From Eledone cirrhosa (taxonomy: Eukaryota), in contig OZ024741.1 in the NCBI GenBank assembly GCA_964016885.1, forward strand, positions 200,260,001 through 200,324,000: a stretch of 64,000 bases of DNA, in the 5' to 3' direction. Below the pieces are notes generated by a model. It was not told the DNA's origin. It did no database searches and worked only from the letters and a program-made list of their open reading frames with translations. Of this stretch, positions 17,990 through 51,530 are shown in pieces (position 1 is the first letter of the stretch; the number at the start of each line of letters is the position of its first letter). The position numbers and the translations under genes were made by a program.

Positions 17990-19859
17990 ATTTATACTCT
18001 GATTTGTATCGAGTACCTTACTTACTGTGGTTACCCCCGATTGAACCTGGGATAAACTTATATATATATAATATTCTGTTTTTAACATTTGCAACAACTT
18101 AATCAATGGAACTGAATTAAGATATCTACTTCAAGCTCTGACAAAATCTACGACATACATAGGCAATGGGGTTTTTTATTACCTAGAGACAATAAAAATG
18201 CATAGTATATAAATAAATAATTTGTGACAAAGGTCAAAATACAACTTTAAGAATCATCTTCGTATTTAGTCTAAGATTTAAATAAATCACCAAAATGTCA
18301 TTAGAACAAATTCTAGCAGGAAATGTTGGTGGTAAAATGAATGTATTGATTTATTGACCAAAATTTGCTTGATTCAGTTTGATGGGATGACTTCACAAAT
18401 AAAGGTTGTTATATCTCAAAACTAGTAACTAATTCAAAATTTAGAAAAAAAATGTGTTATGCAATGGAGTGAGAGAGAAGGGGAGACTAAAGAAAAAGAC
18501 CCAATAGGGATAGAGACTAAAAAATTAAAAAAACAAGAAAGAGAGAGAGAAAGAAAGGGTATTAAAAAAAAAGAAAGAAATGTGATAATTTGAATGTTGA
18601 AAAGATTTGATAACAAATCTGTAAGATGAGATCTTTCGGGTGAACAAATCTAATAAAATATGGTATTCCTGGAAAGATAGTGCTCATAATTCCAGATTTT
18701 TGTTTGTTTGTTATTTATTTATTTATCTATTTATTTCATAGCTGAGCAGAAAGGGAAATAATGAGCTTCAACGGAAACTAAGATTCTGGTTGATGCGAAT
18801 ATCTAAATTACAAAGCTAAATAAATTAGAAATAAGACGTTATTGAATAAACATATATTTATTGCTTTCTTCCAACTACATATAGAATTTTCTGATTAGGT
18901 TAAAATTCCATTTCTGTTTTGCATTACTATGCTTTTCTTTCTCTGTTGATTTGATAAAGATATTGAATAAGAAAATCTAGAAATTTTCATTCAGGTACAT
19001 GTCACAAAAATTTAATTTGATGTCAATTAACCACACCAATAACAATAACAATGATTTCTTCCAATAATGATAATAATTGTTTCTACTTTAGGCACAAGGC
19101 CAGCAATTATCAGTTCATTACTGGTACTTTATTTTACCGACCCCGTAAGGATGAAAGGCAAAGTCAACCTCGGCGGGATTTGAACTCAGATCGTTAAGGG
19201 ACGTAACTATGCTGGAAAACATGGCGTCTGACCCTCTACCGATACTGCCAATCCACCGCCCTTTATTAATGATAATAATGGTTTCTGAATTAAGCACTAG
19301 GCCAACAATTTTGTTGGGAGGTAAAAGTTGATTAAATCAACTCCACTGCTTTACTGGAACTTTATTTTATCAACCACCAAAAGATGAAAGGCAAAGATAA
19401 CCTTGGCGGGATTTGAATTCGGAACGTAAAAGGCCATAACTCTATACTGCAAAGCATGGCGTCTGATGCTCTACTGATACTGCCAAATGAATTAAAACAT
19501 ATTAAATATGTTTAGAATTTTGTGCATCTCAATAAGCAAGCTCAATAGACTTTATCTAGAGCCATAATAACCAAATGAAAAATATATATGTATATATATA
19601 TAGAGAGAGAAAGAACCATATATCGTATAAGAAATACAGTATATTGTATATATAGTATACTAAATACATAATTCATACAAGAATATGTACATAGGTGGAA
19701 TCATAAGATAGATATTATGATTCCACCTGTGTACATATTCTTCTATAGAATATGTATTTGGTATATATATACAATATACTGTGTTTCCTATATGATATAT
19801 GGCTCTTTCTCTCTCACCAGAAAGATGAAAGGCAAAAATAACCTCAGCAAGATTTGAAC

Positions 19860-20922
19860 TCTGCCCCAAATGCAAACAATGGGTACACAAGAGATGTAGC
19901 GGGATCTCAGGAAGCTTAATTAAGAATGTAGGATTCACATGCAGCAGCTGTGCTGGGACTGCAAGCAGCAAACAGCCACAGGAAACAAGTACCACCAATC
20001 TCTGGGAGGGCTCTGTAGAAACAGTAGACAGCTTCTGCTACCTAGGTGACCGAATTAGCAGCGGAGGTGGGTGTTCAGAAAGTACAATAACTAGGGTAAG
20101 AACGGGATGGAAGAAGTTTAGGGAACTACTACCACTGCTAGCTGCAAAAGGCTTCTCCCTCAAAATGAAAGGCAGACTGTATGATGCGTGTATCCGAACA
20201 GCGATGTTGCATGGTAGTGAGACCTGGGCGCTGAAGGTGGAAGACTTACGTAGATTAGAGAGAAACGAAGCCTGCATGCTCCGATGGATGTGTAATAGTA
20301 ATATACGCGAACGGCAAAGCATAAATGAATTGAGAGAGAGACTGAGCATAAGAGGAATCAAATGCTGTGTGCAGGAGAGGCGGTTGCGTTGGTATGGACA
20401 TGTGATGTGTATGAAGGATGACAGCTGCATAAAAAGGTGCAGAGCACTAGAAGTCGATGGAAACTGCGGAGTGGGGAGACCCAAGATGACCTGTGATGAG
20501 GTGATAAAAGCCGACCTTACCCAATTACACCTCTCAAAGGCGATGACACACAACCGTGACCTCTGGCGTCACGCAGTAATACAGAGTACCCGACCTCCCA
20601 TGGGTACAAGCTGAAGCATATAGAAATATGCCCCCCCCCCCCCCACTGCAAGGTGGTCGTGGAGGTGCCACGGCAAAAAAGCACCCAGCCCACACTGTAA
20701 AGTGGACGTGTAGGCGCCACGAAAAAGCACCCAGCACTCACTGTAAATGAGGTTGGTGTTAGGAAGGGCATCCAGCTGTAGAAATCAAGCCAAATCAGTT
20801 CCTGTATGAGCAAGGCATGGTCAGCCGACCAGACACTGCCCACAACAGGACAACTCGTCTAACCCATGCTAGCGTGGAAGAACGGACGTAAAACGGTGAT
20901 GATGATGATGATGATGATGATG
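19860..20922 (+). mobile_element. 5'-truncated RTE-clade LINE inserted into a minus-strand SINE
   Basis: Partial PHD-like finger, FCYLGD, MLHGSETW, RRLRWYGHV, GVGRPK, then the 3' UTR and (GAT)n tail. SINE halves flank both sides. Confidence 0.92.
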
Positions 20923-21640: not shown

Positions 21641-21850
21641 TCATCATCATCATCATGATCATCATCATCACCGTTTTACGTTCATTCTTCCATACTAGCA
21701 TGGGTTAGACAAGTTGTCCTGTTGTGGGCAATGCCAGGTCAGGTGACCATGTTTTGCTTATACGGAAATTGATTTTGGCTTGATTCCTACAGCTGGATGC
21801 CCTTCTTAACACCAACCTCATTTACAGTGAGTACTGGGTGCTTTTTTACA
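21641..21850 (-). mobile_element. RTE LINE 3' end that runs into the 50-bp satellite
   Basis: (CAT)n tail followed by the reverse complement of the 3' UTR seen at 20740-20920 and 32770-32950. Confidence 0.9.
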
Positions 21851-24800
21851 GTGCCACCTACATGACCACTTTACAGTGAGTACTGGGGGACTTTTTTACA
21901 GTGGCGCCTACACGACCATTTTACAGTGAGTACTGGGTGCTTTTGTACAGTGGCGCCTACACGACCACTTTACAGTGAGGACTGGGAGACTTTTTTACAG
22001 TGGCGCCTACACGACCACTTTACAGTGAGTACTGGGTGCTTTTTTACAGTGACGCCTACACGACCACTTTACAGTGAGGACTGGGAGACTTTTTTACAGT
22101 GGCGCCTACACGACCACTTTACAGTGAGTACTGGGTACTTTTTTACAGTGGTGCCTACACGACCACAATACAGTGAGGACTGGGAGACTTTTTTACAGTG
22201 GCGCCTACACGACCACTTTACAGTGAGTACTGGGTGCTTTTTTACAGTGGCGCCTACACGACCACTTTACAGTGAGGACTGGGGGACTTTATTACAGTGG
22301 CGCCTACACGACCACTTTACAGTGAGTACTGGATGCTTTTTAAAAGTGGCACCTACACGACCACTTTACAGTGAGGACTGGGAGACTATTTTACAGTGGC
22401 GCCTACACGACCACTTTACAGTGAGGACTGGGAGACTTTTTTACAGTGGCGCCTACACGACCACTTTACAGTGAGGACTGGGAGACTTTTTTACAGTGGC
22501 GCCTACACGACCACTTTACAGTGAGGACTGGGAGACTTTTTTACAGTGGCGCCTACACGACCACTTTACAGTGAGTACTAGGTGCTTTTTTACAGTGGCG
22601 CCTACACGACCACTTTACAGTGAGGGCTGGGGGACTTTTTTACAGTGGCGCCTACACGACCACTTTACAGTGAGGACTGGGGGACTTTTTTACAGTGGCG
22701 CCTACACGACCACTTTACAGTGAGGACTGGGGGACTTTTTGACAGTGGCGCCTACACGACCACTTTACAGTGAGGACTGGGGGACTTTTTTACAGTGGCG
22801 CCTACACGACCACTTTACAGTGAGGACAGGGGGACTTTTTTACAGTGGCGCCTACACGACCACTTTACAGTGAGGACTGGGGGACTTTATTACAGTGGCG
22901 CCTACACGACCACTTTACAGTGAGGACTGGGGGACTTTTTTACAGTGGCGCCTACACGACCACTTTACATGAGTACTGGGTGCTTTTTTACAGTGGCGCC
23001 TACACGACCACTTTACAGTGAGGACTAGGGGACTTTTTTACAGTGGCGCCTACACGACCACTTTACAGTGAGGACTGGGAGACTTTTTTACAGTGGCGCC
23101 TACACGACCACTTTACAGTAAGGACTGGGGGACTTTTTTACAGTGGCGCCTACACGACCACTTTACGGTGAGGACTGGGGGACTTTTTTACAGTGGCGCC
23201 TACATGACCACTTTACAGTGAGGACTGGGGGACTTTTTTACAGTGGCGCCTACACGACCACTTTACAGTGAGGACTGGGGGACTTTTTTACAGTGGCGCC
23301 TACACGACCACTTTACAGTGAGGACTGGGGGACTTTTTTAAAGTGGCGCCTACACGACCACTTTACAGTGAGGACTGGGGGACTTTATTACAGTGACGCC
23401 TACACGACCACTTTACAGTGAGGACTGGGGGACTTTATTACAGTGGCGCCTACACGACCACTTTACAGTGAGGACGGGGGGACTTTATTACAGTGGCGCC
23501 TACACGACCACTTTACAGTGAGGACTGGGGGACTTTATTACAGTGGCGCCTACACGACCACTTTACAGTGAGAAATGGGAGACTTTTTTACAGTGGCGCC
23601 TACACGACCACTTTACAGTGAGGACTGGGGGACTTCTTTACAGTGGCGCCTACACGACCACTTTACAGTGAGGACTGGGAGACTTTTTTACAGTGGCGCC
23701 TACACGACCACTTTACAGTGAGGACTGGGGGACTTTTTTACAGTGGCGCCTACACGACCACTTTACAGTGAGGACTGGGGGACTTTTTTACAGTGGCGCC
23801 TACACGACCACTTTACAGTGAGGACAGGGGGACTTTTTTACAGTGGCGCCTACACGACCACTTTACAGTGAGGACTGGGGGACTTTATTACAGTGGCGCC
23901 TACACGACCACTTTACAGTGAGGACTGGGGGACTTTTTTACAGTGACGCCTACACGACCACTTTACATGAGTACTGGGTGCTTTTTTACAGTGGCGCCTA
24001 CACGACCACTTTACAGTGAGGACTGGGGGACTTTTTTACAGTGGCGCCTACACGACCACTTTACAGTGAGGACTGGGAGACTTTTTTACAGTGGCGCCTA
24101 CACGACCACTTTACAGTAAGGACTGGGGGACTTTTTTACAGTGGCGCCTACACGACCACTTTACGGTGAGGACTGGGGGACTTTTTTACAGTGGCGCCTA
24201 CACGACCACTTTACAGTGAGGACTGGGGGACTTTTTTACAGTGGCGCCTACACGACCACTTTACAGTGAGGACTGGGGGACTTTTTTACAGTGGCGCCTA
24301 CACGACCACTTTACAGTGAGGACTGGGGGACTTTTTTAAAGTGGCGCCTACACGACCACTTTACGGTGAGGACTGGGGGACTTTATTACAGTGACGCCTA
24401 CACGACCACTTTACAGTGAGGACTGGGGGACTTTATTACAGTGGCGCCTACACGACCACTTTACAGTGAGGACTGGGGGACTTTATTACAGTGGCGCCTA
24501 CACGACCACTTTACAGTGAGGACTGGGGGACTTTTTTACAGTGGCGCCTACACGACCACTTTACAGTGAGGAATGGGAGACTTTTTTACAGTGGCGCCTA
24601 CACGACCACTTTACAGTGAGGACTGGGGTACTTTTTTAAAGTGGCGCCTACACGACCACTTTACAGTGAGGACTGGGGGATTTTATTACAGTGACGCCTA
24701 CACGACCACTTTACAGTGAGGACTGGGGGACTTTATTACAGTGGCGCCTACACGACCACTTTACAGTGAGGACTGGGGGACTTTATTACAGTGGCGCCTA

Positions 24801-27800
24801 CACGACCACTTTACAGTGAGGACTGGGGGACTTTATTACAGTGGCGCCTACACGACCACTTTACAGTGAGGAATGGGAGACTTTTTTACAGTGGCGCCTA
24901 CACGACCACTTTACAGTGAGGACTGGGGGACTTTATTACAGTGGCGCCTTCACGACCACTTTACAGTGAGGACTGGGGGACTTCTTTACAGTGGCGCCTA
25001 CACGACCACTTTACAGTGAGGACTGGGAGACTTTTTTACAGTGGAGCCTACACGACCACTTTACAGTGAGGACTGGGGGACTTTTTTACAGTGGCGCCTA
25101 CACGACCACTTTACAGTGAGGACTGGGGGACTTTATTACAGTGACGCCTACACGACCACTTTACAGTGAGGACTGGGGGACTTTATTACGGTGACGCCTA
25201 CACGACCACTTTACAGTGAGGACTGGGGGACTTTTTTACAGTGGCGCCTACACGACCACTTTACAGTGAGGACTGGGGTACTTTTTTAAAGTGGCGCCTA
25301 CACGACCACTTTACAGTGAGGACTGGGGGATTTTATTACAGTGACGCCTACACGACCACTTTACAGTGAGGACTGGGGGACTTTATTACAGTGGCGCCTA
25401 CACGACCACTTTACAGTGAGGACTGGGGGACTTTATTACAGTGGCGCCTACACGACCACTTTACAGTGAGGACTGGGGGACTTTATTACAGTGGCGCCTA
25501 CACGACCACTTTACAGTGAGGAATGGGAGACTTTTTTACAGTGGCGCCTACACGACCACTTTACAGTGAGGACTGGGGGACTTTATTACAGTGGCGCCTA
25601 CACGACCACTTTACAGTGCGGACTGGGGGACTTCTTTACAGTGGCGCCTACACGACCACTTTACAATGAGGACTGGGAGACTTTTTTACAGTGGCGCCTA
25701 CACGACCACTTTACAGTGAGGACTGGGGGACTTTTTTACAGTGGCGCCTACACGACCACTTTACAGTGAGGACTGGGGGACTTTATTACAGTGACGCCTA
25801 CACGACCACTTTACAGTGAGGACTGGGGGACTTTATTACGGTGACGCCTACACGACCACTTTACAGTGAGGACTGGGGGACTTTTTTACAGTGGCGCCTA
25901 CACGACCACTTTACAGTGAGGACTGGGGGACTTTATTACAGTGGCGCCTACACGACCACTTTACAGTGAGGACTGGGGGACTTTATTACAGTGACGCCTA
26001 CACGACCACTTTACAGTGAGGACTGGGGGACTTTATTACGGTGACGCCTACACGACCACTTTACAGTGAGGACTGGGGGACTTTTTTACAGTGGCGCCTA
26101 CACGACCACTTTACAGTGAGGACTGGGGGACTTTATTACAGTGGCGCCTACACGACCACTTTACAGTGAGGACTGGGTGCTTTTTTACAGTGGCGCCTAC
26201 ACGACCACTTTACAGTGAGGACTGGGGGACTTTATTACGGTGACGCCTACACGACCACTTTACAGTGAGGACTGGGGGACTTTTTTACAGTGGCGCCTAC
26301 ACGACCACTTTACAGTGAGGACTGGGGGACTTCTTTACAGTGGCGCCTACACGACCACTTTACAGTGAGGACTGGGGGACTTTATTACGGTGACGCCTAC
26401 ACGACCACTTTACAGTGAGGACTGGGGGACTTTTTTACAGTGGCGCCTACACGACCACTTTACAGTGAGGACTGGGGGACTTTTTTACAGTGGCGCCTAC
26501 ACGACCACTTTACAGTGAGGACTGGGTGCTTTTTTACAGTGGCGCCTACACGACCACTTTACAGTGAGGACTGGGGGACTTTATTACGGTGACGCCTACA
26601 CGACCACTTTACAGTGAGGACTGGGGGAGTTTTTTACAGTGGCGCCTACACGACCACTTTACAGTGAGGACTGGGGGACTTCTTTACAGTGGCGCCTACA
26701 CGACCACTTTACAGTGAGGACTGGGAGACTTTTTTACAGTGGCGCCTACACGACCACTTTACAGAGAGGACTGGGGGACTTTATTACAGTGGCGCCTACA
26801 CGACCACTTTACAGTGAGGACTGGGGGACTTTATTACAGTGGCGCCTACACGACCACTTTACAGTGAGGACTGGGGGACTTTATTACAGTGGCACCTACA
26901 CGACCACTTTACAGTGAGGAATGGGAGACTTTTTTACAGTGGCGCCTACACGACCACTTTACAGTGAGGACTGGGGGACTTTATTACAGTGGCGCCTACA
27001 CGACCACTTTACAGTGAGGACTGGGGGACTTCTTTACAGTGGCGCCTACACGACCACTTTACAGTGAGGACTGGGGGACTTTATTACAGTGGCGCCTACA
27101 CGACCACTTTACAGTGAGGACTGGGGGACTTTATTACAGTGGCGCCTACACGACCACTTTACAGTGAGGACTGGGGGACTTTTTTACAGTGGCGCCTACA
27201 CGACCACTTTACAGTGAGGACTGGGGGACTTCTTTACAGTGGCGCCTACACGACCACTTTACAGTGAGGACTGGGGGACTTTATTACGGTGACGCCTACA
27301 CGACCACTTTACAGTGAGGACTGGGGGACTTTTTTACAGTGGCGCCTACACGACCACTTTACAGTGAGGACTGGGGGACTTTTTTACAGTGGCGCCTACA
27401 CGACCACTTTACAGTGAGGACTGGGTGCTTTTTTACAGTGGCGCCTACACGACCACTTTACAGTGAGGACTGGGGGACTTTATTACGGTGACGCCTACAC
27501 GACCACTTTACAGTGAGGACTGGGGGAGTTTTTTACAGTGGCGCCTACACGACCACTTTACAGTGAGGACTGGGGGACTTCTTTACAGTGGCGCCTACAC
27601 GACCACTTTACAGTGAGGACTGGGAGACTTTTTTACAGTGGCGCCTACACGACCACTTTACAGAGAGGACTGGGGGACTTTATTACAGTTGCGCCTACAC
27701 GACCACTTTACAGTGAGGACTGGGGGACTTTATTACAGTGGCGCCTACACGACCACTTTACAGTGAGGACTGGGGGACTTTATTACAGTGGCACCTACAC

Positions 27801-28181
27801 GACCACTTTACAGTGAGGAATGGGAGACTTTTTTACAGTGGCGCCTACACGACCACTTTACAGTGAGGACTGGGGGACTTTTTTACAGTGGCGCCTACAC
27901 GACCACTTTACAGTGAGGACTGGGGGACTTTTTTACAGTGGCGCCTACACGACCACTTTACAGTGAGGACTGGGAGACTTTTTTACAGTGGCGCCTACAC
28001 GACCACTTTACAGTGAGGACTGGGTGCTTTTTTACAGTGGCGCCTACACGACCACTTTACAGTGAGGACTGGGTGCTTTTTTACAGTGGCGCCTACACGA
28101 CCACTTTACAGTGAGGACTGGGGGACTTTTTTACAGTGGCGCCTACACGACCACTTTACAGTGAGGACTGGGGGACTTTTT
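21822..28181. repeat. Tandem satellite, 50-bp unit, about 127 copies
   Basis: Consensus GTGGCGCCTACACGACCACTTTACAGTGAGGACTGGGGGACTTTTTTACA. Copy number is estimated as length divided by 50. Confidence 0.98.
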
Positions 28182-31132: not shown

Positions 31133-31720
31133 AGGCGGTGGATTGGCAGTATAGGTAGAGGGTCGGATGCCATGCTTTCCAGCATAGTTACGTCCCTTTA
31201 CGATCTGAGTTCAAATCCCGCCGAGGTTGACTTTGCCTTTCATCCTTGCGGGGTCGATAAAATAAAGTACCAGTAATGTACTGGGTAATTACTGGCCTTG
31301 TGCCAAAGGTAGAAACAATTATTTGTATTTGTATTGAAGGGTGGTGGATTGGCAGTATCGGTAGAGGGTTGGACGCCATGCTTTGATGCATTGAGTTACA
31401 GCCCATGCCATTCTGAGTTCAAATCCTGCCGAGGTTAACTTTGCCTTTCATCCTTACAGAGTCGATAAAATAAAGTACCAGAAATACACTGGGATAATTG
31501 CTGGCCTTGTGCCAAAAGTAGAAACAATTATTTATATTTGGATTCGCAGTATCAGTAGAGCATCAGACACCATGCTTTCCAGCATATGGCCCTTTACGTT
31601 CTGAGTTCAAATCCCTCCGAGGTTAACTTTGCCTTTCATCCTTATGGGGTTGATAAAATAAAGTACCAGTAATGTGTTGATATAATTGCTGGTCTTGTGC
31701 CAAAAATAGAAACAATTATT
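31133..31720 (+). mobile_element. Three head-to-tail Nin-like SINE copies
   Basis: Units of ~190-200 bp at ~31133, ~31338 and ~31545, each ending GTAGAAACAATTATTT or a close variant. Confidence 0.9.
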
Positions 31721-31745
31721 TGTATTTAAAATCTCGTGTTAGGGA

Positions 31746-32950
31746 GAAGCAGGGACTAGAGAGAAAGGGCCTCAAAGTCAACATGACAAAGACTAAGGTC
31801 CTTATAAGTAGACGAGAAAACAGAACCCAGATCCCCTCAGGGAAATGGCCTTGCTCAGTATGTAGGAAAGGTGTAGGTAGGAACTCCATTCTCTGCCCCA
31901 AATGCAAACAATGGGTACACAAGAGATGTAGCGGGATCTCAGGAAGCTTAATTAAGAATGTAGGATTCACATGCAGCAGCTGTGCTGAAACAGCAAGCAA
32001 ACAGCCACAGGAAACAAGTACCACCAATCTCTGGGAGGGCCCTGTAGAAACAGTAGACAGCTTCTGCTACCTAGGTGACCGAATTAGCAACGGAGGTGGG
32101 TGCTCAGAAAGTACAATAACTAGGGTAAGAACGGGATGGAAGAAGTTTAGGGAACTACTACCACTGCTAGCTGCAAAAGGCTTCTCCCTCAGAATGAAAG
32201 GCAGACTGTATGATGCGTGTATCCGAACAATGATGTTGCATGGTAGTGAGACCTGGGCGCTGAAGGTGGAAGACTTACGTAGATTAGAGAGAAACGAAGC
32301 CTGCATGCTCCGATGGATGTGTAACAGTAATATACGTGAACGACAAAGCATAAAGGAATTGAGAGAGAGACTGAGCATAAGAGGAATCAAATGCTGCGTG
32401 CAGGAGAGGCAGTTACGCTGGTATGGACATGTGATGCGTATGAAGGATGACAGCTGCATAAAAAGGTGCAGAGCACTAGAAGTTGATGGAAACCGCGGAG
32501 TGGGGAGACCCAAGATGACTTGGGATGAGGTGATAAAAGCCGACCTTACCCAACTACACCTCTCAAAGTCAATGACACACGACCGTGACTTCTGGCGTCA
32601 CGCAGTAATACAGGGTACCCGACCTCCCATGGGTACATGCTGAAGCATATAAACAATATGCCCCCCCCCCCCCCACCGCAAGGTGGTCGTGGAGGTGCCA
32701 CGGCAAAAAAGCACCCAGCCCACACTGTAAAGTGGACGTGTAGGCGCCACGAAAAAAGTACCCAGCACTCACTGTAAATGAGGTTGGTGTTAGGAAGGGC
32801 ATCCAGCTGTAGAAATCAAGCCAGATCAGTTCCTGTATGAGCAAGGCATGGTCAGCCGACCAGACACTGCCCACAACAGGACAACCCGTCTAACCCATGC
32901 TAGCGTGGAAGAACGGACGTAAAACGGTGATGATGATGATGATGATGATG
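31746..32950 (+). mobile_element. 5'-truncated, little-decayed RTE-clade LINE
   Basis: Uninterrupted ORF to 32643 (GLKVNMTKTK, WPCSVCRKGVGRNSILCPKCKQWVHKRC, FCYLGD, LRWYGHV, GRPKMTW), then the 3' UTR and (GAT)n. Nearly identical to the 19860 copy. Confidence 0.95.
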
Positions 32951-34850: not shown

Positions 34851-37800
34851 AATTCAATTATAACATTCTGTATTTACATTTGGTATTACTGCATACTGCC
34901 AGTAATATGCACAGTAAATGTATACTGTAATTAGTAAAGAAAAAAAAAAATCTATTCGCAAAAATTTTAATTGCATCTTTTTGTTCCCACTTAAGTATTT
35001 TTTGAAAATTTTATTTATTCCTTATAACAATTAAATGATCGCATTGTAGTTGTGGATGGGTCCTCTTTGTATCCTGGCAACAAATATTTTATACCTAGTC
35101 CACCACTGCACACAAGCATTGTATTTCATTAGAAATACGATAGCAAAAGGGTTAATCCAGAGTAGAATGGAATTCAGTCAGGTTCAAATATTGGACTCAA
35201 CTGAGTTTCTCACCAATGTTCAATAGTATTTAACTAGGTCTGGCATATGAGTCGAGGTTTGGAAAAAAATTTGAATGATTACAGCCTTCCCTCTTCACTT
35301 ACCCAAACCACTCCAACTTCAACTAATTCCTTATTTATTTGCCTGCAGCCCAAGTGACACATTTTCCTTTCTTTTAAATGAAAGAATAGGCCCAAAACAT
35401 TAGCTCCAGCATACATCATAGCAATTCAACTTATCGAACACTTTTCTATGGACTAATTGTTCTGACACATGCCTTTATCAGTCTCCTTGGATTTCAGATT
35501 TTATCTGTCTTCTCTATAGTTGCAATCCTCTGAAATTCTCTCTTTGTTTATATTTCCCTACAGAACTTCAAACTAACAACTGCATAATCTCAGCTGTCAA
35601 GAAGGGCATGTAAAAGTCATGTCCACTGCCCTGCCTTCTGATAATTAACAAAAAAAAAATCATGTCTACAATAGTCAACAATCTCATTAGCACATCTAAT
35701 TAAAGGCAAATAGCTCTCTTTTTTAAACTATCTCATGGAATCTATATGAATGACAGAACTTTGTTGAAAATGGAGTTACTTAACTGAAAATTAGCAACAT
35801 TTTCAATTAATCTCAAAATTTAACCATTTTGTTTCCATATTTCAAATGAAAAACAGTCTATGATTTTCAAATAATTTTGAAAATATTCAAGATTTTGGAG
35901 GGATATTTAATACAATGACTAGCTTTCTCATTATTAAGCTGGCATTTAGGACAAAATTTAACAAATGTTTTAACATAAAATACTGATTGAAGGTTCTTTT
36001 TAGATAAATATAAACACTAACATAAATTGTATAGTTGAACCGGAGGGCCAGCTTCAGCTGGTTTCGTATCGAAAATGGTTAAGCCTAACTGAACTTCATC
36101 CTATTCAAATTGCCTGGATTAACAGACTCTTTGTTGGCCATTGAGTTGCAGCATGCATAACTGGTGTCTTTTTCTTATAATTGGTTAATAGCCATCATTC
36201 TTATATAAGTTGCTCCAAGATGTTCACCTGCTGGTTATCAACCAACTCAGGAATTATACTCACTAAAAAAAAATTAAATCAGTAACTTTCTAGTGGATCA
36301 AATCAATCAAGCTCCCAGACCTCATCAAATTGGACCAAAGAAACAATGTTTCCATTGGTCTTTCCACTGCTGATACTATCTACAGGCTGCAACTCCTGGC
36401 AGAAAAAGTAACATGAAATAAAGTGTCTTGCTCAATGATATAATGCATCGCCCAATCCAGGAATCAAACTTGCAACCTCATGATTGTGAACCTAATTCTA
36501 TAACCACTAAGCCACATGCCATCTAATAAAACAGTTTTCTACACTTTAGCAAACTACAGCACCTTGAAATTCTCAATGTCAGATTTAATTGTCTAGTGCA
36601 AAGGACCAGTAAAGTAACTGCAATGTATTCAAATTTGTGTCCCATGAAGTCAACAATCTAACATCTAATTTACTCAGCCATTTAAATACATTGCAGTTAC
36701 TTCTACAAGAACACTACCTGTACCGAATAATATATTCCATGAAAAGAAATTTACTTTAACCCTTCCATTACTGTATTTCTAATTAAATATACTGCCAGTG
36801 TTTCAGTTAATTTTGAAAATAACCAAATATTTGGTAACTTTTTCATTAATAAGTGAACACAGAACATTACTTAACAAATATTTCTAAAAGTAAAATTATA
36901 ATGTAAGATTTTAATATAAACACTTTAGAATGTGCAATGTTGTATCTTAGAACCAGAGGCAATTTCAGGCAGATTGATATCAAAAGGAACAAATATTGGA
37001 TGCAAAATAGAAACAAAGTTCCCTTAGTAAAAATCAAAACAAAACAAATGTATGAGCAATGAGATTTTATTAGTAGGTAGGACTGATCAAGGTTGCGACT
37101 GAAAACAATAAAAACGAGCAGGAAGGGAGGTAATTAATCTCAATTTCATTTAACCCGGTACCAAGCCTATGTCTATAAGGATATAGCCAACTGACTCGGA
37201 ACATTACTGGTTCTTGATTTATCAATTTATGTAAATGAAATGCAAAGTCAATGTTGGTAGGATTTTAATTTGGAATGGGCTGCGGTGGGAGTATGTCACA
37301 TTGATTTCATGTATAGGTCCAACATCTGATATTGATAGCAGAAATAAGATTGTTGTATGTTTAAGTTTTCCTAAAGTGAAGTAAAATTGCTACAACTGAG
37401 GGAAAAAAAAAACAAACTATATTGCACTTGTCACCTCAAGACCATACCTTGTTTTGAAAGCATCCTTTTATTTCATTTTAAATAACAAAATAGTTTAATC
37501 CAGCTAGTAGGGGTGTTTCTATACAGTCCTTAAATTGCTAAAACAGCCCAATCTCCTTCAATAAACATCCTTGAATAGGGACCAATCTTAAGACAGCATG
37601 CTCCAACTCAAGGTGACAAATCAGACAGCTGATATCTGTATAGCTACTCAACTCAATAGAAATACATTCTGTTGGCTCCTCTTCAAGCAAATATGACTAG
37701 TGCTACTAGTGCAAAATCAAATTTCAAATTATACAAAATTAGGTCAAAATAATAAAATATATCAATTTTAAGTAATCAATTTTAAAAACTGCAATAGGCT

Positions 37801-37929
37801 AGCTTATTTTACATATTAAATGTTATTATTGGTAATTATTAATTTTTTTTAGTTCTAAAAACACTTTTTGAATTCGTAAAAATATTTAGGCAGTGTGAAT
37901 ATGTAATGACTAGTTTATTTGGTCATCAT

Positions 37930-39210
37930 ACTCCTTATTCTTGTATTTCTTTCGGTCATGACCATTATTGGAGGAGATCCCACGGAAAACTTATCTCCTA
38001 TGATTGGAAGGAGACAGATCTTCTCCATAACATGTCATTAGCCCCAGGCTGGAAGTCAAAGCTGGAAGCATGGATAGACCTGGAAGGTGAACTCGTAATA
38101 CCCAAAAGGTGCAGTCCTAGAGTCATTGAGAAAAAGGTTAACATTCTGGAAGATTCTCTCAGGAGTGTGAATAAGGTTCTGTGCAATAACTGTAACATGA
38201 ATTATTTAAACTTTGTTGATCGCCCACAACCTCCAATTCATCTATGTCAAAAGCAGTTCCTGGGCTTCATTTTAGGGGCTGTTGGCACTGGGCTAGAGTC
38301 CGCAGCCCTAATAAAGGTGGAGAACCCTCAGACTCAACCCAACAGCAACTTTCAGCATATACAACAAACCTTGAGAGCTCAAACATATAGTTTCACATAT
38401 TCTGAGAGATCAGCTCTTCACAATAGCCTGAGCTGAATCTGCCGTTCAGAATGAAACAAAGGGAAATTTGAACGCAAGGTGCATACGCAGTAGAATTCCA
38501 CAAGGTTCAAGTGAGTTAAAACACGAGCTATCAAAGCATTGGAGGGAGCCATATAATTCCCCAGTGTGCTGGGCTTGAAGAACACTATATGTCCCTCCTA
38601 CATGAGCATGAGAATAAGGCTGCTCTAGAATTTCTGTCAGGCCATATCCTGGAATGGGTTAATGAGAGTTAGGAAAGCTGACAGAGGGGAAGCCAAACAT
38701 CAAGACATCCTCAATTCCCTCCAAGAACCCCCTCCCCATATTGTTTTCATCAGCTCAACTCATTATTGAGTGTATGGAGACCTCTTCCAGGGTCGGTCTT
38801 ATCCCTTGGCCAAGATAACCTTTGCTCCTAACTTCAAGCAAGGAACCTCTGAATCCGTTTTCAGTATTATCAACAATATTATTTTTCAGGGAAAGTATGT
38901 CTATGAACTTTTTGATCACATCAGATGCACCACCAGGGATCAACAATTCAATTACCTCTCTCCTAATTTGTGAGACACGGATTGTACAAGCTCGTTATCT
39001 TTGAAGATTTGTGCGGGGGTGCCCTTTTAGCGTCTTTAACAGAGAACCTCAATGTGAATGCATAAAGTATATTTTAGAGGATTTTATCTGGTTACATGGA
39101 ACACGCAGGATCACTAAGATATGTCATAATCCTGATACCAAAGAAGTTATCAATCTGCGCGAGAGCACTCTGATGGTGGTTCCAGTCGGAGGATGCTTTT
39201 AGATTATCGA
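37930..39210 (+). pseudogene. Decayed class I viral fusion glycoprotein (F/Env-like), endogenous viral or retroelement-derived
   Basis: CQKQ-FLGFILGAVGTGLESAAL (eroded furin site plus fusion peptide), then a heptad-like segment and a Cys-rich C-terminal region spread over frameshifted ORFs. Confidence 0.65.
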
Positions 39211-39299
39211 ACAGTGACTTATGGCCAGAAAGAGAAAGCTAGTTATTCCAGGATTAGAAAATTGGTATTATTTGCACTTGGAAAATTAAAAAAGTAACA

Positions 39300-40168
39300 A
39301 GCACATTCATATCCTAATGGGAGACTTCAAGGCTCATGTTGACACTGAAAACCTGACATGGAAAGGAGTGATTAGAAGGAATGGTGAACCCAATCTAAAT
39401 ACGAATGGAGAGGCCTTATTTGACTTCTGTTCTAGCAATGGACTCTCTATTATAAATGCCTTCTTCAAGCACAGAAACATCCATAAATATACTTGGTATA
39501 AGGGGAATCAAGGACAGAGATCAATAATATCGATTTTGTTATTGTCTCTTATCTCTTCAATTTTGTGTTAGACGTTTGTGTTAAGAGAGGGGCTGAGCTG
39601 TCATCTGATCACCATCTAGTTATCTGCAACTTCAGACTACCTAAAGCCTAAGAATCCCACAAAACTGGCTGGTTCAGGGCAACCTACCAGATAAAGTGGG
39701 ACCAGATATGTAGATACTATTGCATCCAAATTCAGAGAACTCCCTGAGCAAACTGAGCACATTGAAATGGAGTGGAGATGGTTCAGCTGTTATATGTTGT
39801 GGGCAAAATAGGCTTGGTGTGGCGCTGGATAACAGGAAAACCCTGTGGTTCAATCAAGAGGTGAAAGATGCGATTCGAGCAAAGATGGAGGCATACAAAG
39901 TTTGGCTTGGAAATAAGTGCTCCTTTTTTTGTATTTGCCATACAAGTAGGAACGAAGAATCATAGCAGTCAGTAAAGGCGTCTAAAATTAAGACATGGGA
40001 AGACTTTGGGGTGAAGCTGGAATCTGATTTCAGATCAGTAAATAAAGTGTTGTGGCAGACCATCTGCTAACTTTGTAATATGAAGCCCTCCACACATGCT
40101 ATCAGAGATGCGTCTGGGGTTCTCTCTTCAGAGAGCTGTATCCTTGCAAGGTGGAAAGAATACTTTGT
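39300..40168 (+). mobile_element. RTE (Rex3/Expander-like) LINE fragment, AP endonuclease and linker
   Basis: MGDFKAHV..WKGVIRRNG..FDFCSSNGLSIINAFFKHRNIHKYTW, SDHHLV, WFNQEVKDAIRAK. Confidence 0.88.
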
Positions 40169-40174
40169 TCATAT

Positions 40175-40913
40175 CATTTGAGCAGAGACTGGAGGGGAAG
40201 TGGCTGTATCCCCAAGGGCTTACCAAGGAGACAAGTGGCTATGAGTATTACACTCATGCGAAGTGCTTCAGCTCCCAGGTTCATACTGGCTCATCAAAGG
40301 ATGCTTGCAGTGTGAAACATGCTGGTTTCGTGCCACCTCACCTTCTAAGATTACTGACTTTCAACATGTAGTGAATAGTGGTGCTTACCTGACCAAGGAG
40401 TTGACCTTTCCCAGCCCAGGTCCTGAGCCAGGCCCGTTGTCTTCCTGGGCTTGGTGGGCTTTAGTCAGCTAGGTCTGGTTACCATGGTTGGACCTCTGGC
40501 TAAGCTTAATCTTGATACATGTCTCCCATGAGTGGATGAAAAATAGTGTCTATGGGCAAATATACATTGAATACTGGAATGACAATGGGGAGCCGAAGAT
40601 CCTGAAATTTGAGAAGGGGAAGGCCTGTGCCTATCAATTGAGGACAATCAACATTAACAGTACTAGAGGAATCAGGGTTTGGATTGCCTATGTGTCCAAT
40701 TTCCAATACCAGGATCAGATTGTAGATCTAATCTGGCATAGAGTAAGGAATTGGAAATGCGAGCATGATAAGGTGGTCACACTGTTCATCACCTTTGTGG
40801 TGTCCATGCAGTTCCACAGGGAAAGGATCTTACTCCTGATGAAAGAGCAGAACTCCATGGTCACGAGGCCCAGCAACTTGTTGGCAATGAAAAAGCTCCA
40901 CTCTTGCATGTAA
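40175..40913 (+). pseudogene. Unassigned decayed coding region, possibly a second glycoprotein C-terminus plus a downstream ORF
   Basis: GKWLYPQG..LQLPGSYWLIKGCLQCETC..SSWAWWALVS, then a 141-codon open frame (40488..40913). More GC-rich than the downstream flank. Confidence 0.35.
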
Positions 40914-42644
40914 CTACATTCTAAGCCTAAATGATGACTGATAAACTATATTTTAAAAAATTAAGAATTCTCAACAATACATTAAATAAAACAATAGAAA
41001 CAATTCCCTTTGATTTGTCATGAAACCACCAACGTACATTCAGGACTCTGTATAATGCAGGTACTTATTTTAATACCCTGCACCTCAACACCAAAGAAAG
41101 AAAGGGAAAAATCAGCTCCAGCTTACACTCAAAACTGAAGTCTCATGCTAAATAATTCTATAATATTAATAGAAGGAAAATAGATATAAGTTTGCAATCA
41201 TAATAACAATGTTTTTCTTTCAGCTTTGGCATTAAGCCAAAAACTGTACAGAGGAACTTACACATTTCTAGCACTTATCTTATCAACCCAACACAGATGA
41301 TAAGCAAAGTTGTCTTGGCAGGATTTGAACGTAGAATATAAAGGGACGTAACTGATCTACCAAATTTCATTGCCTTTAAAAGTAATAATGATTTCTTACA
41401 TTGGTGCAAGGCCACGAATTTGTTTGGGGCTCGTATAGTTAGTTAACCTAACCCAATTACAAACATGATACCTATTTTTCTGATCCCAGAAGGGTGAAAG
41501 GCCTAGTTGACTGTAATGAGATTTGGTCACAGAACAGAGAAAATGAACTAAATACTATTTCTTTAAGCCCCTATTTTATTACTTCTGCCACCTCATTAAC
41601 TTAATAATAATGCTGATTTCTAATTCAGGCACAAAGCCAGCAATCTGGGTGAGGGAAAAGTCGGTTACATCGATCCCAGTTTTTAACTTCTACTATATCT
41701 TATCAACACCAGAAGGGTGAAAGGCGAAATTGATCTCAGAACATAAAGTATTGGCGAAATTAGCACATGCCATTCTACCAATCACTGTAAAGATTCTTCC
41801 AATCCACCAACCTCATAATATTTTACACAGGTACAAGGCAAGAAATTTAGGAGGAGGGGTTAGTCGATTAAATCGATCTCACTACATGACTGGTACTTTA
41901 TTTTATTGATCCTGGAAGAATGAAAAGTAAAGTTAACCTCGGCAGGATTTAAACTCAGAATATAAAGAGTTAGAATTAAATACTGCAATGCCTTTTTTCT
42001 GAAGCTCTAATGATTCTACTAATCTGCTTTCCTAACAATTGTTTCTATATTTGGCACAAGGCCAATAACTTGAAGGGAAGAGAAAAGTCCATTAAATCGT
42101 CCTCAGTTCATTACGGGTGCTTATTTCATCAATCCCGTAAGGACAAAAGGCAAAGCGAAATTTGGCAGGATTTGAACTCAGAACGTAAGTATATGCCGTA
42201 CTGGTGCTGCCAATGCACTGCCTTTGGTGCCCTAATAATAAGAATAATCATTTCCAATTTAGGCACAGGGACAAAAATTTGGGAGTGGGATTATTAATCT
42301 CTGAAATCAACCACAATACTTCACTGGTACTTATTTTATCAACCCCAGAAGGCTGAAAATCATAGATGACCTCAGAACATAAAGAGCTGAAACAAATACA
42401 AGATATTTTCTCCAACACTCTAATGATTCTACTAATGGCCACTTAAGATATCTTTAGAGCTGTTTGTTGTTAATGAGATGTTAGATTGAATTGAGTAATG
42501 TTTCAATGTCTTTGGTGATACAGCAGTGGTCAGTATAAGAAAATCAAGGATGATTTCACTTTATGAAGAAAAGGCCACAGTTAATAAGTCTCATATAATG
42601 TCTAAATGAATGTGTTGATTTATTTTTTGTTTTATCCAGCACTG

Positions 42645-42883
42645 CTAGCAGAGGTTAGCAGAGTTATTGTCCTCACAGCTTTGACACACTCTAACTGGAT
42701 AGTCCCAACCTCGATGTGGTACACAGCTCTTGTTTGGAGAGCATTTGTTGCAAACCACTTTACCACAATTACGGCAATGATGTTTAGATACTTTAGTACC
42801 AAATTCTGCATTACATACTGCACAATGTGTTACTGTTTCATCAGGGATCCAGTATGCTGGACGTACACTGTCTTTGATGATTC
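42645..42883 (-). CDS. ZFYVE1: ZFYVE1/DFCP1 last coding exon (second FYVE domain)
   Basis: AG acceptor at 42885-42884, phase 1. IIKDSVRPAYWIPD..CAVC..SKHHCRNCG..RGWDYPVRVCQSC, TAG stop at 42647-42645. Confidence 0.96.
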
Positions 42884-43975
42884 CTAAAATAAGAATAATA
42901 AAAAAAATGTTATATAGGTGAGATATATTAAATTCTTCAGCCTGCAAAACATATAAACTTAATGATTGCACTTTCAAATATTAGCTTCTGATATTGATAC
43001 AAGGCAACAAATTTGTAGCAAAGCATATAATGAATTTGACTGTTGCATGCATCTGATAGTAGCTATATAAATCCTATAACCCTGATAGTAGCTTTGTAAA
43101 TCATTATGCAAAATTTCTGTTTTAAAAATAATCTGTAATTATCAATTTCATTGTAAAAATAAACAATTTATAAAAAAAAAAAATGATCGATAAGATCCCA
43201 GACCTCATTCGTATACCGAGTGGGATGGAACCAAGGAAACAATGTTTCTATTGGTCTTAATTATCTGATATTATCTACTGGTTGCAACTCCTGGCAGAAA
43301 AACCAACGCAAAATAATTTCTTGCTCAAGGACATAATACATTGTTTGTCCAGGAATCCAACTTGCAACCTCACAATTGCAAATTCTCTAACTACTAAGCC
43401 GTCTGCCTTCACAACAATTTATAAAGGAGGGGTAAAAGATTTATATTTATGATTTTCTTGGTGATATCAGTAGTGCAACTGGAGTGGATTGGGTTCATTA
43501 GGAGGAAAAACAGCTTATACACTTGGCTAGTCTTTTCTTAACCTTTTTGATACCAAGTTCTACAAAACAAATCACCATAATTTATATTTATCTAGAAACC
43601 TTCCAACATGTAAAACACTTTATGTTCCAAACACCAACTTCATAATGAGAAAGTTATATTACTAAATCCCTCTACATTTTTTAATATTTTCAAAATGATT
43701 TGAAAATTATAGGCTGCATATTTCATTAGAAATATTGTAACATCTTATATTCTACAAAAAATTTCAATAGAGAGTTGAGATGAATTAAGAAAAATGAAAT
43801 AATTGAAGTGAAATTAAAATGTTCAACATTTATAGAAGATGAGATTAATATTTCAAAATATTTTTTGAAATGCTAAAGATAGTACATTTAAAAGATAATG
43901 AAGGTGCAATAAAATTTCTAGAAAACATTTCTGATAACATAAATATAAATCATAAACTATACAAGTTAATCTTAC

Positions 43976-44609: not shown

Positions 44610-44915
44610 AGACAGTAAGAGGACTTTGGGGTTAAGCTAGAATCAGACTTCAGATCAGCAAATAAAGTGTTTTCGCAGACCATCCGCCAACTTCGTAATA
44701 TGAAGCCCTCCACACCTGCTATCAGGGATGCGTCTGGGGTTCTCCTCTCTTCAGAGAGGTGCATCCTCGTGAGGTGGATAGAATATTTTGCTGAACTCCT
44801 AAACCCGATCACAACAGCATCTTCCGATGTACACGAGGTGCAACTGGAAGCGGTGATAAATCTCTCAGAGGCTGAGGTCACAAGAGCAGTTAAAGAGCTT
44901 AAATGTGGCATAACC
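44610..44915 (+). mobile_element. RTE (Rex3/Expander-like) LINE internal fragment
   Basis: Same family as 39990-40168. FSQTIRQLR..RWIEYFAELLNP..EAEVTRAVKELK. Confidence 0.82.
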
Positions 44916-48628: not shown

Positions 48629-49794
48629 CTAGTAAAAGATAAAAGTTAATCCTAATAAAAAAAGAATAGGTTGTAAAATTATAAGAGAATTACATCTGCA
48701 GTCTAACATCTATGAGCTTGGATGGTCTTGCTTAGGGATATAGCTGGATCAGTTGGAAACAGTTGCTTCTAACAGGACTTGCTGGAAGGTCTGCTTAACG
48801 ACTCTGCTTCTTGGGAATAAGTAGGAGAAATGGGAGAAGAAGAAAAAGAAGTATGGTTGCACCTATTTTACACAGCAGAGTAAACAGGTTTTAATGCTGT
48901 TGCCTCATTCAAATCTATACACACCTTTTTCCAGATATGCTGCACACATGAACACACATAGCTAAAAAATACCCAAACATACACCCTCCTCCCACTTCCC
49001 TTAAAAAAAAATCACAAAATGTCAGGTAGCGACTAAATAATTCCAAACAACTGACTGTCAGTCAATGACTTAAACACAAACACATAAACTTTTCCAAAAA
49101 GTGTCAAGCTTGAAGGCACATAAAATAACACTACACAACCCTCAGTCACTGATATATATATACACACATACATACAAATAAAAAAAAGAAGTCTTTTGAA
49201 TGCACACTAAATAACTTCACACAACAGCCTTAGAGAGACAGAGCAACTGAATATGAAAACATGGGTTGTATAAAAGTCAGAAATATGATATAAAATATAA
49301 TATAATGAATTCATTAAGCTAAGATACAAATACAGTTATTCATGTAGATTTAGAATTACATAGATTAGAAAAAAAAAAATTTATTAGTATAAATTAGCAG
49401 CTACTTAGCTAATACTATTTAATGGGTCATGAAGAAATAATATATAAATCAATAATTTAGGGTTAATTTATTTAATTTTATTTCAATTAAATTATATAAT
49501 GTTTGCAACAAACAGAATAATCAAATAATGAAAGGGGGTGAGGGAATATTGCTATCGGGGCAGTATACCTCAGCTGCGCCCAAGATGACAAAAACACTGC
49601 TGCAGAAAACAACCAGCAACACCTGCTGCATCAGCCACTCCACCTCACAGAGTTCTTTCCTCAAGTAGGATGCACTACTTCCAATTTTGCAGAGAAAAAC
49701 AGCAGTTCAGGGACACTATAGGTCTTGACAGTAATGAGTTTCAAAATTATATATTCATCATTTATAAATTTATAAATATATATATATATATAAG

Positions 49795-51530
49795 ATGCTT
49801 TCGACAATAAGGAAGAGCAATTAGAGTCGTACAATATAGAGGAACAGTGGGTATTCCTGAAAGCTAACCTGCTGAAGGCGGCAGATGAAGTCTGTGGCTG
49901 GAGCGGGCCTATAGGCAGGAGGAGAGTAACGTGGTGGTGGAATAGTAAGGTGGAGGAGTCAATTAAGGCTAAAAAGCAGGCTTGGAAAGTATGGCGGGAT
50001 GGGGGAAGTAGAGAAGACTATCAAGTGGCCAGGAGGGAAGCTAGGAGACAAGTGTACTTCGCAAGAAGGGAAGCAGAGGAAAGAAAGTTCAAGCATGTTC
50101 TACAACGCGAGGACCAAAAACGTGAGGTGTTCAGGATTGCTAGGCAATGTGTCAAGGAAAACCGTGATATTGTCGGGGAGAAGTGTGTCCTTAATGATGA
50201 TGGCGTACTTGCCATCACTGACGCTGATAAGAAGGTAGCTTGGAAGTGTCACTACGAAAGGCTACTAAATGAGGAGAATAAATGGGAGAAAGACAGTCTC
50301 CCCCACATCAATCCAATAGAGGGACCAGCAGTGCTAGTTGAAGGTAGTAAGGCAATCAAAGATATGAAGAGGGGTAAGGCGGCTGGGCCTTCGGAAATAG
50401 TTGCTGAAATGCTGAAAACATCTGGAATGGTGGGACACACTATGGTCACCCGGATAGTAAACCAAGTCATACAGAATGGGGCCGTTCCGAAGGACTGGCG
50501 TAGCAGCATCATCATTAACTGCTACAAGATGCTCTTGATAGGGGTAACTATAGAGACATTAAATTAATCGACCAGGTCATGAAGGTCACAGAAAAAGTAA
50601 TAGCGCAACTAATCAGAGAGAGAATTGATCTAGATGAAATGCAGTTCGAGTTTGTACGACAACTACAAGAGAAGTACCTAGCTAAAAGTAAACCCCTATA
50701 CTTAGCTTTTGTTGACTTGGAGAAAGCCTTTGACAGAGTCCCCCGCTCCATTATCTGGTGGGCGCTTAGAAAACTAGGTGTTGATGAATGGCTTGTGAGA
50801 GCTATACAAGCCATATATAAAGAAACAGTCAGCAAGGTTAGAATTAACAAAGAATATAGTGAAGAGTTTAGCGTAAAAGTTGGTGTTCATCAGGGCTCCG
50901 TTCTTAGCCCCCTATTATTTATTATTGCCCTTCAGGCTATAACAGAGGAGTTCAAGTCCGGCTGCCCATGGGAACTCCTATATGCAGATGATCTAACGCT
51001 CATAGCTGAATCAATGGCTGAACTAGAGAAGAAATTCCAAACATGGAAGCATGGCCTAGAATCAAAAGGCCTTAAAGTTAACTTGTCCAAGACTAAAGTT
51101 CTAGTTTATAGGAAGGAAAATAGGGCACCGGTCCCATCTGGGAAATGGCCATGCTCAGTGTGTAGGAAAGGAGTAGGCAGAAACTCCATTTTATGTCCCA
51201 AATGCAAAGTATGGGTGCATAAAAGATGTAGTGGGATCACAGGTAAGCTAACTAAGAATATAGATTTTATATGTGGCCGGTGCTCTGGTGCAATAAGTAG
51301 CAGCAAATGCCCACAGAATACTAGCTCATTCCATTGCACAGATGGTTCTATAGAAATAGTGGACACCTTCCGTTACCTGGGTGACAAAATCAGCAGTGGG
51401 GGAGGGTGCTCTGAAAGTACAGTAGCTAGAGTCAGAACAGGATGGAAAAAGTTCAGAGAGCTTATACCACTACAGGACAACCCGTCTAACCCACGCTAGC
51501 ATGGCAGAACGGACGTAAAACGGTTATGAT
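49795..51530 (+). mobile_element. RTE-clade LINE with RT domain, internally deleted before the 3' tail
   Basis: AFVDLEKAFDRV, GVHQGSVLSPLLF, LLYADD, PHD-like finger. The sequence jumps at ~51472 to the last ~55 nt of the 3' UTR. Confidence 0.93.

What the first reader, a model, noticed from the sequence alone, without database searches (positions are those of the whole stretch)
37930..39210. Endogenous class I viral fusion protein remnant with a reconstructable furin site
Seen: TGT CAA AAG CAG (38245-38256, CQKQ) becomes CGT CAA AAG CGG (RQKR) by reverting two CpG-type transitions. It is immediately followed by FLGFILGAVGTGLESAAL and a heptad-like run (IKVEN..NSNFQHIQQTL). Upstream is GW..C..KVNILEDSL; downstream is a Cys-rich region. 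Established: R-X-K-R plus a hydrophobic Gly-rich peptide plus a heptad repeat defines class I fusogens, and the pneumovirus F fusion peptide begins FLGFLLG. Inference: a fossil of an enveloped virus or of an env-bearing retroelement in a cephalopod. No gag/pol or LTR is adjacent, so the carrier is unknown.
Basis: partly seen in the sequence, partly recalled or inferred. Interest (0 to 1): 0.75.

Follow-up and report, generated by a model that had tools for sequence, protein, structure and literature searches.

The report
Broken viral fusion gene in octopus
A single-copy, broken stretch of foreign-looking DNA in an octopus-type genome carries a fusion-peptide-like motif and a second unknown gene, and is likely the dead remains of a membrane-fusion gene from an enveloped virus not yet found, though only the fusion-peptide region matches known proteins better than chance.

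Summary
The letters are as described: CQKQ at 38245-38256, then FLGFILGAVGTGLESAAL, inside a 197-codon open frame. No furin site exists today, and the heptad is weak. The site/fusion-peptide/helix segment is the best match to a paramyxovirus F profile in the window (33.8 against 11.5; about 0.02 expected per window, but 700-1000 per genome). A signal-peptide-like stretch lies 119 codons upstream, the spacing seen in F proteins. The rest of the ectodomain and the expected stalk and membrane anchor do not score. No homologue or paralogue was found, and folding failed. The unit is larger than reported: a single-copy island of about 2.3 kb (37814-40988 without the LINE), bracketed by a 35-bp inverted repeat. 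An RTE LINE piece with an 8-bp flanking repeat splits it, and it ends in a second orphan gene with strong, non-host codon bias. There is no gag, pol or LTR. It lies 1.7 kb past the stop of a FYVE gene. Verdict: likely (about 0.75) a dead F-type fusogen fossil; carrier more likely an enveloped virus than an LTR element, but unproven.

The parts
37814..37848 (.). Left arm of a 35-bp inverted repeat, in a T-rich tract at the left edge of the GC-richer island
   Evidence: 29 of 35 match; 0 of 1000 shuffles, 13 and 6 of 2000 local shuffles, 36 of 1081 natural AT-rich pairs reach the score
37901..37975 (+). Signal-peptide-like hydrophobic stretch after an ATG and two stops, in a different frame from the main ORF
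   Evidence: Hydropathy 3.33, 6th of 71 such stretches in six frames; 119 codons before the fusion peptide, F references median 109, 136, 154
37843..38436 (+). 197-codon open frame holding the F2-like part, CQKQ, fusion peptide and helix
   Evidence: 0.02-0.15 frames this long expected per 64 kb; GC3 0.45
38032..38197 (+). F2-like core (GW..C..KV helix)
   Evidence: RSV F 46-95 profile: 4 of 300 shuffles, range chosen after seeing the motif; paramyxovirus 31 of 300; whole F2 not significant
38245..38256 (+). CQKQ at the position of the F cleavage site; not a furin motif as it stands
38257..38310 (+). Fusion-peptide-like FLGFILGAVGTGLESAAL
   Evidence: in register with the fusion peptide of paramyxovirus and RSV F
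38311..38492 (+). HRA-like segment, weak heptad, broken near 38434
   Evidence: alone 17 of 200 shuffles (paramyxovirus), 162 of 200 (RSV)
38437..39305 (+). Broken remainder of the likely ectodomain: 8 stops in the main frame to 39012, Cys-rich piece in a second frame at 39005-39202
   Evidence: profile scores not significant; no Atlas or PDB hit
39306..40175 (+). Internal fragment of a high-copy RTE-type LINE, flanked by an 8-bp direct repeat (39306-39313, 40168-40175)
   Evidence: 77-79% identical to 11 fetched copies, most of which share further sequence beyond one or both ends; repeat; weak endonuclease Pfam hit E 0.022
40176..40523 (+). Single-copy continuation with a Trp-rich hydrophobic stretch (40446-40523); candidate membrane anchor, unsupported by profiles
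   Evidence: HRB and HRB+TM tests 177-291 of 300 shuffles
40473..40913 (+). ORF2, 146 codons (125 from the ATG at 40536), orphan coding sequence
   Evidence: codon-position bias p 4e-7; GC3 0.64 against 0.21-0.33 in three host exons; no homologue
40955..40988 (.). Right arm of the inverted repeat, inside an A-rich tract (31 of 49 A, 40955-41003) that may be a decayed poly(A) tail
   Evidence: arm unique in the genome at up to 2 mismatches
42645..42878 (-). Last coding exon of the neighbouring host two-FYVE gene (context; ZFYVE1-like by recall)
   Evidence: FYVE E 4e-19 and 2.5e-14 for two exons; stop at 42645

Best explanation
The island is single-copy, broken, foreign-looking coding DNA that is likely the dead fossil of an F-type (paramyxovirus-like, class I) membrane-fusion gene and a small downstream gene from an unknown enveloped virus. 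In the living virus the protein would have entered the secretory route by its signal peptide, been cut about 120 residues in, and used the freed hydrophobic peptide and following helix to fuse membranes (inferred from F proteins). One copy likely entered the germline by reverse transcription of viral RNA (inferred; A-rich 3' end, no LTR or pol). An RTE LINE piece later inserted into it (8-bp flanking repeat shown; order inferred). It has since decayed and is predicted to make no working fusogen.
For: Site+fusion peptide+helix is the best paramyxovirus-F match in the window, 33.8 against 11.5, 0 of 200 shuffles. Whole ectodomain: 1 of 150 shuffles, 0 of 172 window tiles. hhalign 11.7% against a maximum of 0.45% in 30 shuffles. 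Best of 177,635 PDB sequences is a fusion glycoprotein F0, in register, E 0.28. 6 of 8 Atlas rows carry class I fusogen families. These four tests lean on the same segment. Separate features: signal-like stretch at F spacing, 197-codon frame, F2 core, 0.65% chance rate for a CpG-decayed basic site. For a virus over an LTR element: no gag, pol or LTR near; single copy; a second gene with non-host codon bias follows; a published survey lists 0 pol-env hits in all 12 octopod rows of 15 cephalopod assemblies (PMC13524379 supplement).
Against: Without the fusion peptide the signal vanishes (52 of 150 shuffles). F2 as a whole, the post-helix head and the stalk/anchor do not score. 700-1000 chance hits of this score are expected per genome. 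No homologue among 5.8 billion or 1.84 billion proteins, Pfam or IMG/VR. Atlas recognition 1794 is below its 2300 mark, so those hits are weak; the Cys-rich piece gives no hit. The F frame alone has no significant codon-position bias (p 0.17). No nucleoprotein or polymerase piece is present, and no outer target-site duplication above chance. Lokiretrovirus Env has the same local motif style, so the motif does not name the carrier.
Confidence: 0.45

Rival explanations
1. It is the orphaned F-type env of an LTR retroelement (Ty3/gypsy errantivirus or a lokiretrovirus-like element); gag, pol and LTRs were deleted or an env transcript was retroposed, and ORF2 is a long cytoplasmic tail or an accessory gene.
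For: F-type env elements are reported in bivalves (15 of 15 mollusc rows seen, of 46) and three squid-group assemblies have non-zero hits. Lokiretrovirus Env has signal peptide, RXKR, an FLG-type peptide and similarity to PF00523 (PMC7947760). The top Atlas row is a retroviral env cluster. ORF2 begins with a hydrophobic helix in frame with a Trp-rich stretch across one stop.
Against: No pol, gag or LTR within the island or its flanks. Single copy; no other F-type env found in the genome (these searches are insensitive and their controls did not ring). Baculovirus-F profile fits poorly (12 of 200 shuffles). The only gypsy remnant seen is 30 kb away on the other strand.
Confidence: 0.28
2. It is foreign or transposon-derived coding DNA of another kind, and the fusion-peptide look is chance.
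For: Only about 45-80 codons match; hundreds of such scores are expected per genome. All homology and fold searches are blank. Heptad, stalk and anchor are unsupported.
Against: Signal-like stretch, spacing, long open frame, F2 core and a decay-compatible site all fall where F predicts; three different methods rank F proteins first or near first.
Confidence: 0.22
3. It is a domesticated, working host gene (a syncytin-like fusogen or a secreted receptor-blocking fragment from the 197-codon frame).
For: The first 197 codons and ORF2 are free of stops.
Against: The signal-like stretch is out of frame and behind two stops; 8 stops follow in the main frame; a LINE piece splits the unit; a 1-base deletion segregates in the right part.
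Confidence: 0.05

Closest known systems
Paramyxovirus and pneumovirus F glycoproteins (PF00523; PDB 3maw; RSV F from L043/L057)
   Same: Signal peptide, about 100-135 residues before the site, F-x-G-rich fusion peptide, following helix; best profile fit
   Different: No basic site now; head, stalk and anchor do not score; no Pfam hit; found in a mollusc genome with an unknown downstream gene
F-type env of Ty3/gypsy errantiviruses (PMC13524379; abstract, passages, section 6 part 1, section 14, supplement rows seen)
   Same: F-type ectodomain with furin site and fusion peptide; present in molluscs (bivalves)
   Different: Those lie behind gag-pol within LTRs and are mostly multicopy; none listed for cephalopods. 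Their env alignment is a figure I could not read, so no sequence comparison was made
Lokiretrovirus Env (PMC7947760; passages and two supplement excerpts seen)
   Same: Short N-terminal subunit, RXKR then an FLG/FIAG-type peptide, similarity to PF00523
   Different: Vertebrate hosts; gag-pol-env with LTRs; not compared by alignment here
Baculovirus F (PF12259; 36 loci fetched)
   Same: Class I, early cleavage site
   Different: Different fusion-peptide motif, longer N-terminal subunit (142-166), no significant score in any part
Non-retroviral endogenous viral elements made by LINE reverse transcription (recalled, no call)
   Same: Single copy, decayed, no LTR, A-rich 3' end
   Different: No outer target-site duplication detected; ends form a short inverted repeat instead

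Membership tests
F-type class I fusogen (PF00523-like) | Gly-rich hydrophobic fusion peptide directly after the cleavage position | tested here: met
F-type class I fusogen (PF00523-like) | Basic cleavage site (R-X-K/R-R or single R/K) | tested here: not met
   reads CQKQ today; compatible with decay; ancestral state untestable without an intact relative
F-type class I fusogen (PF00523-like) | N-terminal signal peptide 100-170 residues before the site | tested here: inconclusive
   hydrophobic stretch at 119 codons, out of frame, no signal-peptide predictor available
F-type class I fusogen (PF00523-like) | Heptad repeat A | tested here: inconclusive
   6 of 11 a/d hydrophobic; alone 17 of 200 shuffles
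F-type class I fusogen (PF00523-like) | Cys-rich head region | tested here: inconclusive
   17 and 44 of 300 shuffles; no Atlas hit
F-type class I fusogen (PF00523-like) | Heptad repeat B and transmembrane anchor | tested here: inconclusive
   no profile support right of the LINE, 177-291 of 300 shuffles; Trp-rich stretch only
F-type class I fusogen (PF00523-like) | Family profile score over threshold | tested here: not met
   no Pfam F hit
F-type class I fusogen (PF00523-like) | F ectodomain fold | tested here: inconclusive
   single-sequence model pLDDT 32
Ty3/gypsy errantivirus or lokiretrovirus | gag-pol next to env | tested here: not met
   none in or beside the island
Ty3/gypsy errantivirus or lokiretrovirus | Flanking LTRs | tested here: not met
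   no long direct repeat around the island in 35500-43000
Ty3/gypsy errantivirus or lokiretrovirus | Sequence similarity to mollusc errantivirus or lokiretrovirus Env | not testable with these tools
   no such sequence could be obtained as a stored protein
Mononegavirus-derived endogenous viral element | Homology to a mononegavirus gene | tested here: inconclusive
   fusion-peptide segment only; no N or L piece
Mononegavirus-derived endogenous viral element | Gene-start and gene-end signals | not tested
   looked at by eye only; flanks too AT-rich
Mononegavirus-derived endogenous viral element | Poly(A) tail and target-site duplication of a retroposed mRNA | tested here: inconclusive
   A-rich tract 31 of 49; longest outer direct repeat 10 bp, reached by 44 of 200 shuffles

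The most novel reading that the evidence does not exclude
The island is the fossil of an unknown paramyxovirus-like negative-strand RNA virus of cephalopods: an F gene plus a small orphan gene between complementary ends (a genome segment or defective genome). It would place a class I F fusogen in an invertebrate-infecting virus of this group, against the proposal that the switch to class I came with vertebrate hosts (bioRxiv 10.1101/2024.12.15.628590, passages seen).
Probability: 0.22. Interest if true: 0.7.

Novelty: new member of a known kind. Interest (0 to 1): 0.4.

Why it matters
Cephalopod viruses are barely sampled. My searches for octopus or cephalopod paramyxo-like or mononegavirus records returned nothing on the subject (open-access library only). 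An F-type fusogen with no detectable relative among billions of proteins marks an unsampled lineage, whether virus or retroelement, and gives a probe for cephalopod transcriptomes and genomes. If the carrier is a negative-strand virus, it bears on when paramyxovirus-type fusion arose. As it stands it is a dead single copy with modest statistical support and no predicted host role.

Tried and rejected
Homologue searches blank: 5.8-billion set, near and longer lengths (ORF2); 1.84 billion representatives; IMG/VR; Pfam on 8+2+11 frames; PDB for pieces. Own-genome searches found only the locus itself; one E 0.65 hit was unrelated on inspection. PF00523 and PF12259 found nothing, with silent controls. 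A furin+FLG pattern gave 4 matches against 11 for the reversed control. A metagenome motif scan gave 24 loci, none F-like; 34 IMG/VR loci with the window's peptide pattern were unrelated. Plain HMM and local alignment with F profiles did not single out the locus (second-best peak, behind an AT repeat). AlphaFold models were poor (pLDDT 32 and 49); ORF2 fold searches gave no clear match (best E 0.018; best Z 5.2). No RNA holder listed; RAD-seq runs do not cover the island. Rfam nothing above gathering score. My early note that the island is intronic was wrong. Troyka elements (PMC12440569, part 1 of 5 read) are not relevant. The F-type env alignment of PMC13524379 is a figure that could not be read; it bears on the errantivirus rival. 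In building reference sets, 1 of 40 paramyxovirus loci gave no complete F frame and was dropped; cleavage-site counts use only rows matched by the pattern (28 of 39, 2 of 3, 22 of 36).

Full report
Observation. The 12 bases at 38245-38256 read CQKQ in a 197-codon open frame (37843-38436), followed by FLGFILGAVGTGLESAAL; GW..C..KVNILEDSL is upstream in the same frame. The frame then holds 8 stops up to 39012, and a Cys-rich piece lies in a second frame at 39005-39202. There is no furin motif today (0 of 2146 windows). The heptad is weak (6 of 11). Read contigs run from the island into its flanks at flat single-copy depth, so it is not an assembly join (4 runs, at most 2 samples, 1 study).

The island spans 37814-40988, GC-richer than its flanks. 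A signal-peptide-like stretch at 37901-37975 lies in another frame (hydropathy rank 6 of 71). An internal RTE-type LINE fragment occupies 39306-40175; it is 77-79% identical to 11 fetched copies, most of which share more sequence beyond one or both ends, and is flanked by an 8-bp direct repeat. I infer that the two sides were one unit of about 2.3 kb before it inserted. The right side is single-copy and ends in ORF2 (40473-40913), which has strong codon-position bias (p 4e-7) and GC3 0.64 against 0.21-0.33 in three host exons: real, foreign-looking coding DNA with no relative or fold match. A 35-bp inverted repeat (29 of 35) brackets the island; 13 and 6 of 2000 local shuffles and 36 of 1081 natural AT-rich pairs reach its score. 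The right arm lies in an A-rich tract; no outer target-site duplication stands above chance. The island lies 1.66 kb past the stop of a minus-strand FYVE gene, not in an intron. No gag, pol or LTR is near.

Is it an F protein? I fetched 39 paramyxovirus, 3 RSV and 36 baculovirus F genes from IMG/VR and scored the DNA with a frameshift-aware aligner. Site+fusion peptide+helix scores 33.8 on the paramyxovirus profile (z 6.1, 0 of 200 shuffles; next best in the window 11.5), 17.6 on RSV (0 of 200, but 19.3 is reached elsewhere) and -0.6 on baculovirus (12 of 200). A fitted tail gives 0.015-0.02 such hits per window and 700-1000 per genome. The whole ectodomain gives 1 of 150 shuffles and 0 of 172 tiles, but 52 of 150 without the peptide. 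F2 as a whole (43-44 of 200), the post-helix head (34-69 of 100) and the stalk/anchor (177-291 of 300) are not significant; an RSV F2 core reaches 4 of 300 and the Cys core 17 of 300, both ranges chosen after looking. hhalign gives 11.7% against at most 0.45% for 30 shuffles. The best PDB hit is an F0 at E 0.28 in register, lost with a shorter query. 6 of 8 Atlas rows carry class I fusogen families, with a recognition value below the tool's mark; the Cys piece has no hit. All large homologue searches are blank. Features outside the scored segment add weight: spacing of 119 codons from the signal-like start (references median 109, 136, 154), a frame length expected 0.02-0.15 times per window, and a 0.65% chance rate for a site within two CpG-type transitions of a furin motif in a CpG-poor island (observed/expected 0.34). 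I put an F-type fusogen origin at about 0.75.

Mechanism. Shown: single copy, many breaks, LINE piece with flanking repeat, second coding frame, no LTR or pol. Inferred from F proteins: signal peptide, cleavage about 120 residues in, fusion peptide insertion and helical refolding in the original virus. Inferred: one germline integration by reverse transcription of viral RNA, then LINE insertion and neutral decay. The LINE's divergence from its family suggests the unit is old; no date can be given.

Carrier. F-type env occurs in bivalve errantiviruses (15 of 15 mollusc rows seen, of 46), but that survey lists no cephalopod element and 0 hits in all 12 octopod rows of 15 cephalopod assemblies (PMC13524379). 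Lokiretrovirus env has the same local motif style (PMC7947760). A second gene after F, complementary ends and no LTR fit a virus better (0.45) than an orphan env (0.28); chance mimicry stays at 0.22 and a working host gene at 0.05. It is not filed as a member of any of these families: the basic site and the family profile threshold were tested and not met.

Novelty and score. Endogenous viral fusogen fossils are a known kind; this would be a new, very divergent member in a little-sampled host. The boldest reading, a paramyxovirus-like virus of cephalopods with a class I F, would bear on the proposal in bioRxiv 10.1101/2024.12.15.628590; probability 0.22, interest 0.7. Overall interest 0.4.

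Noticed in passing
window 5350-8000 (-): Decayed gypsy-type LTR element: gag-like zinc knuckles (7449-7979), RT-like (6681-7190) and integrase-like (5357-5806) frames, named by eye from translations; no Pfam hit at 0.001. Opposite strand and 30 kb from the island.
   Followed up: partly
window 21821-28181: Satellite of a 50-bp unit, 127.5 copies, 95% matches; short related arrays elsewhere in the window.
   Followed up: no
window 49794-51496 (+), 31681-32643 (+), 19829-20611 (+): LINE pieces with PHD-like fingers; 50519-51496 also has a reverse transcriptase domain.
   Followed up: no
window 42645-63999 (-): Host gene with two C-terminal FYVE fingers, likely ZFYVE1 (name recalled); a second RTE piece at 44619-44790 is 87% identical to the one in the island.
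   Followed up: partly
window 40297, 40423, 38683, 38789, 38954: Allelic differences in read contigs: a 3-base insertion, a 1-base deletion and three substitutions within the island.
   Followed up: no
window 11109-11738 (-): 210-codon open frame in a GC-richer stretch, resembling the end of a LINE-type protein by eye; no Pfam hit.
   Followed up: no
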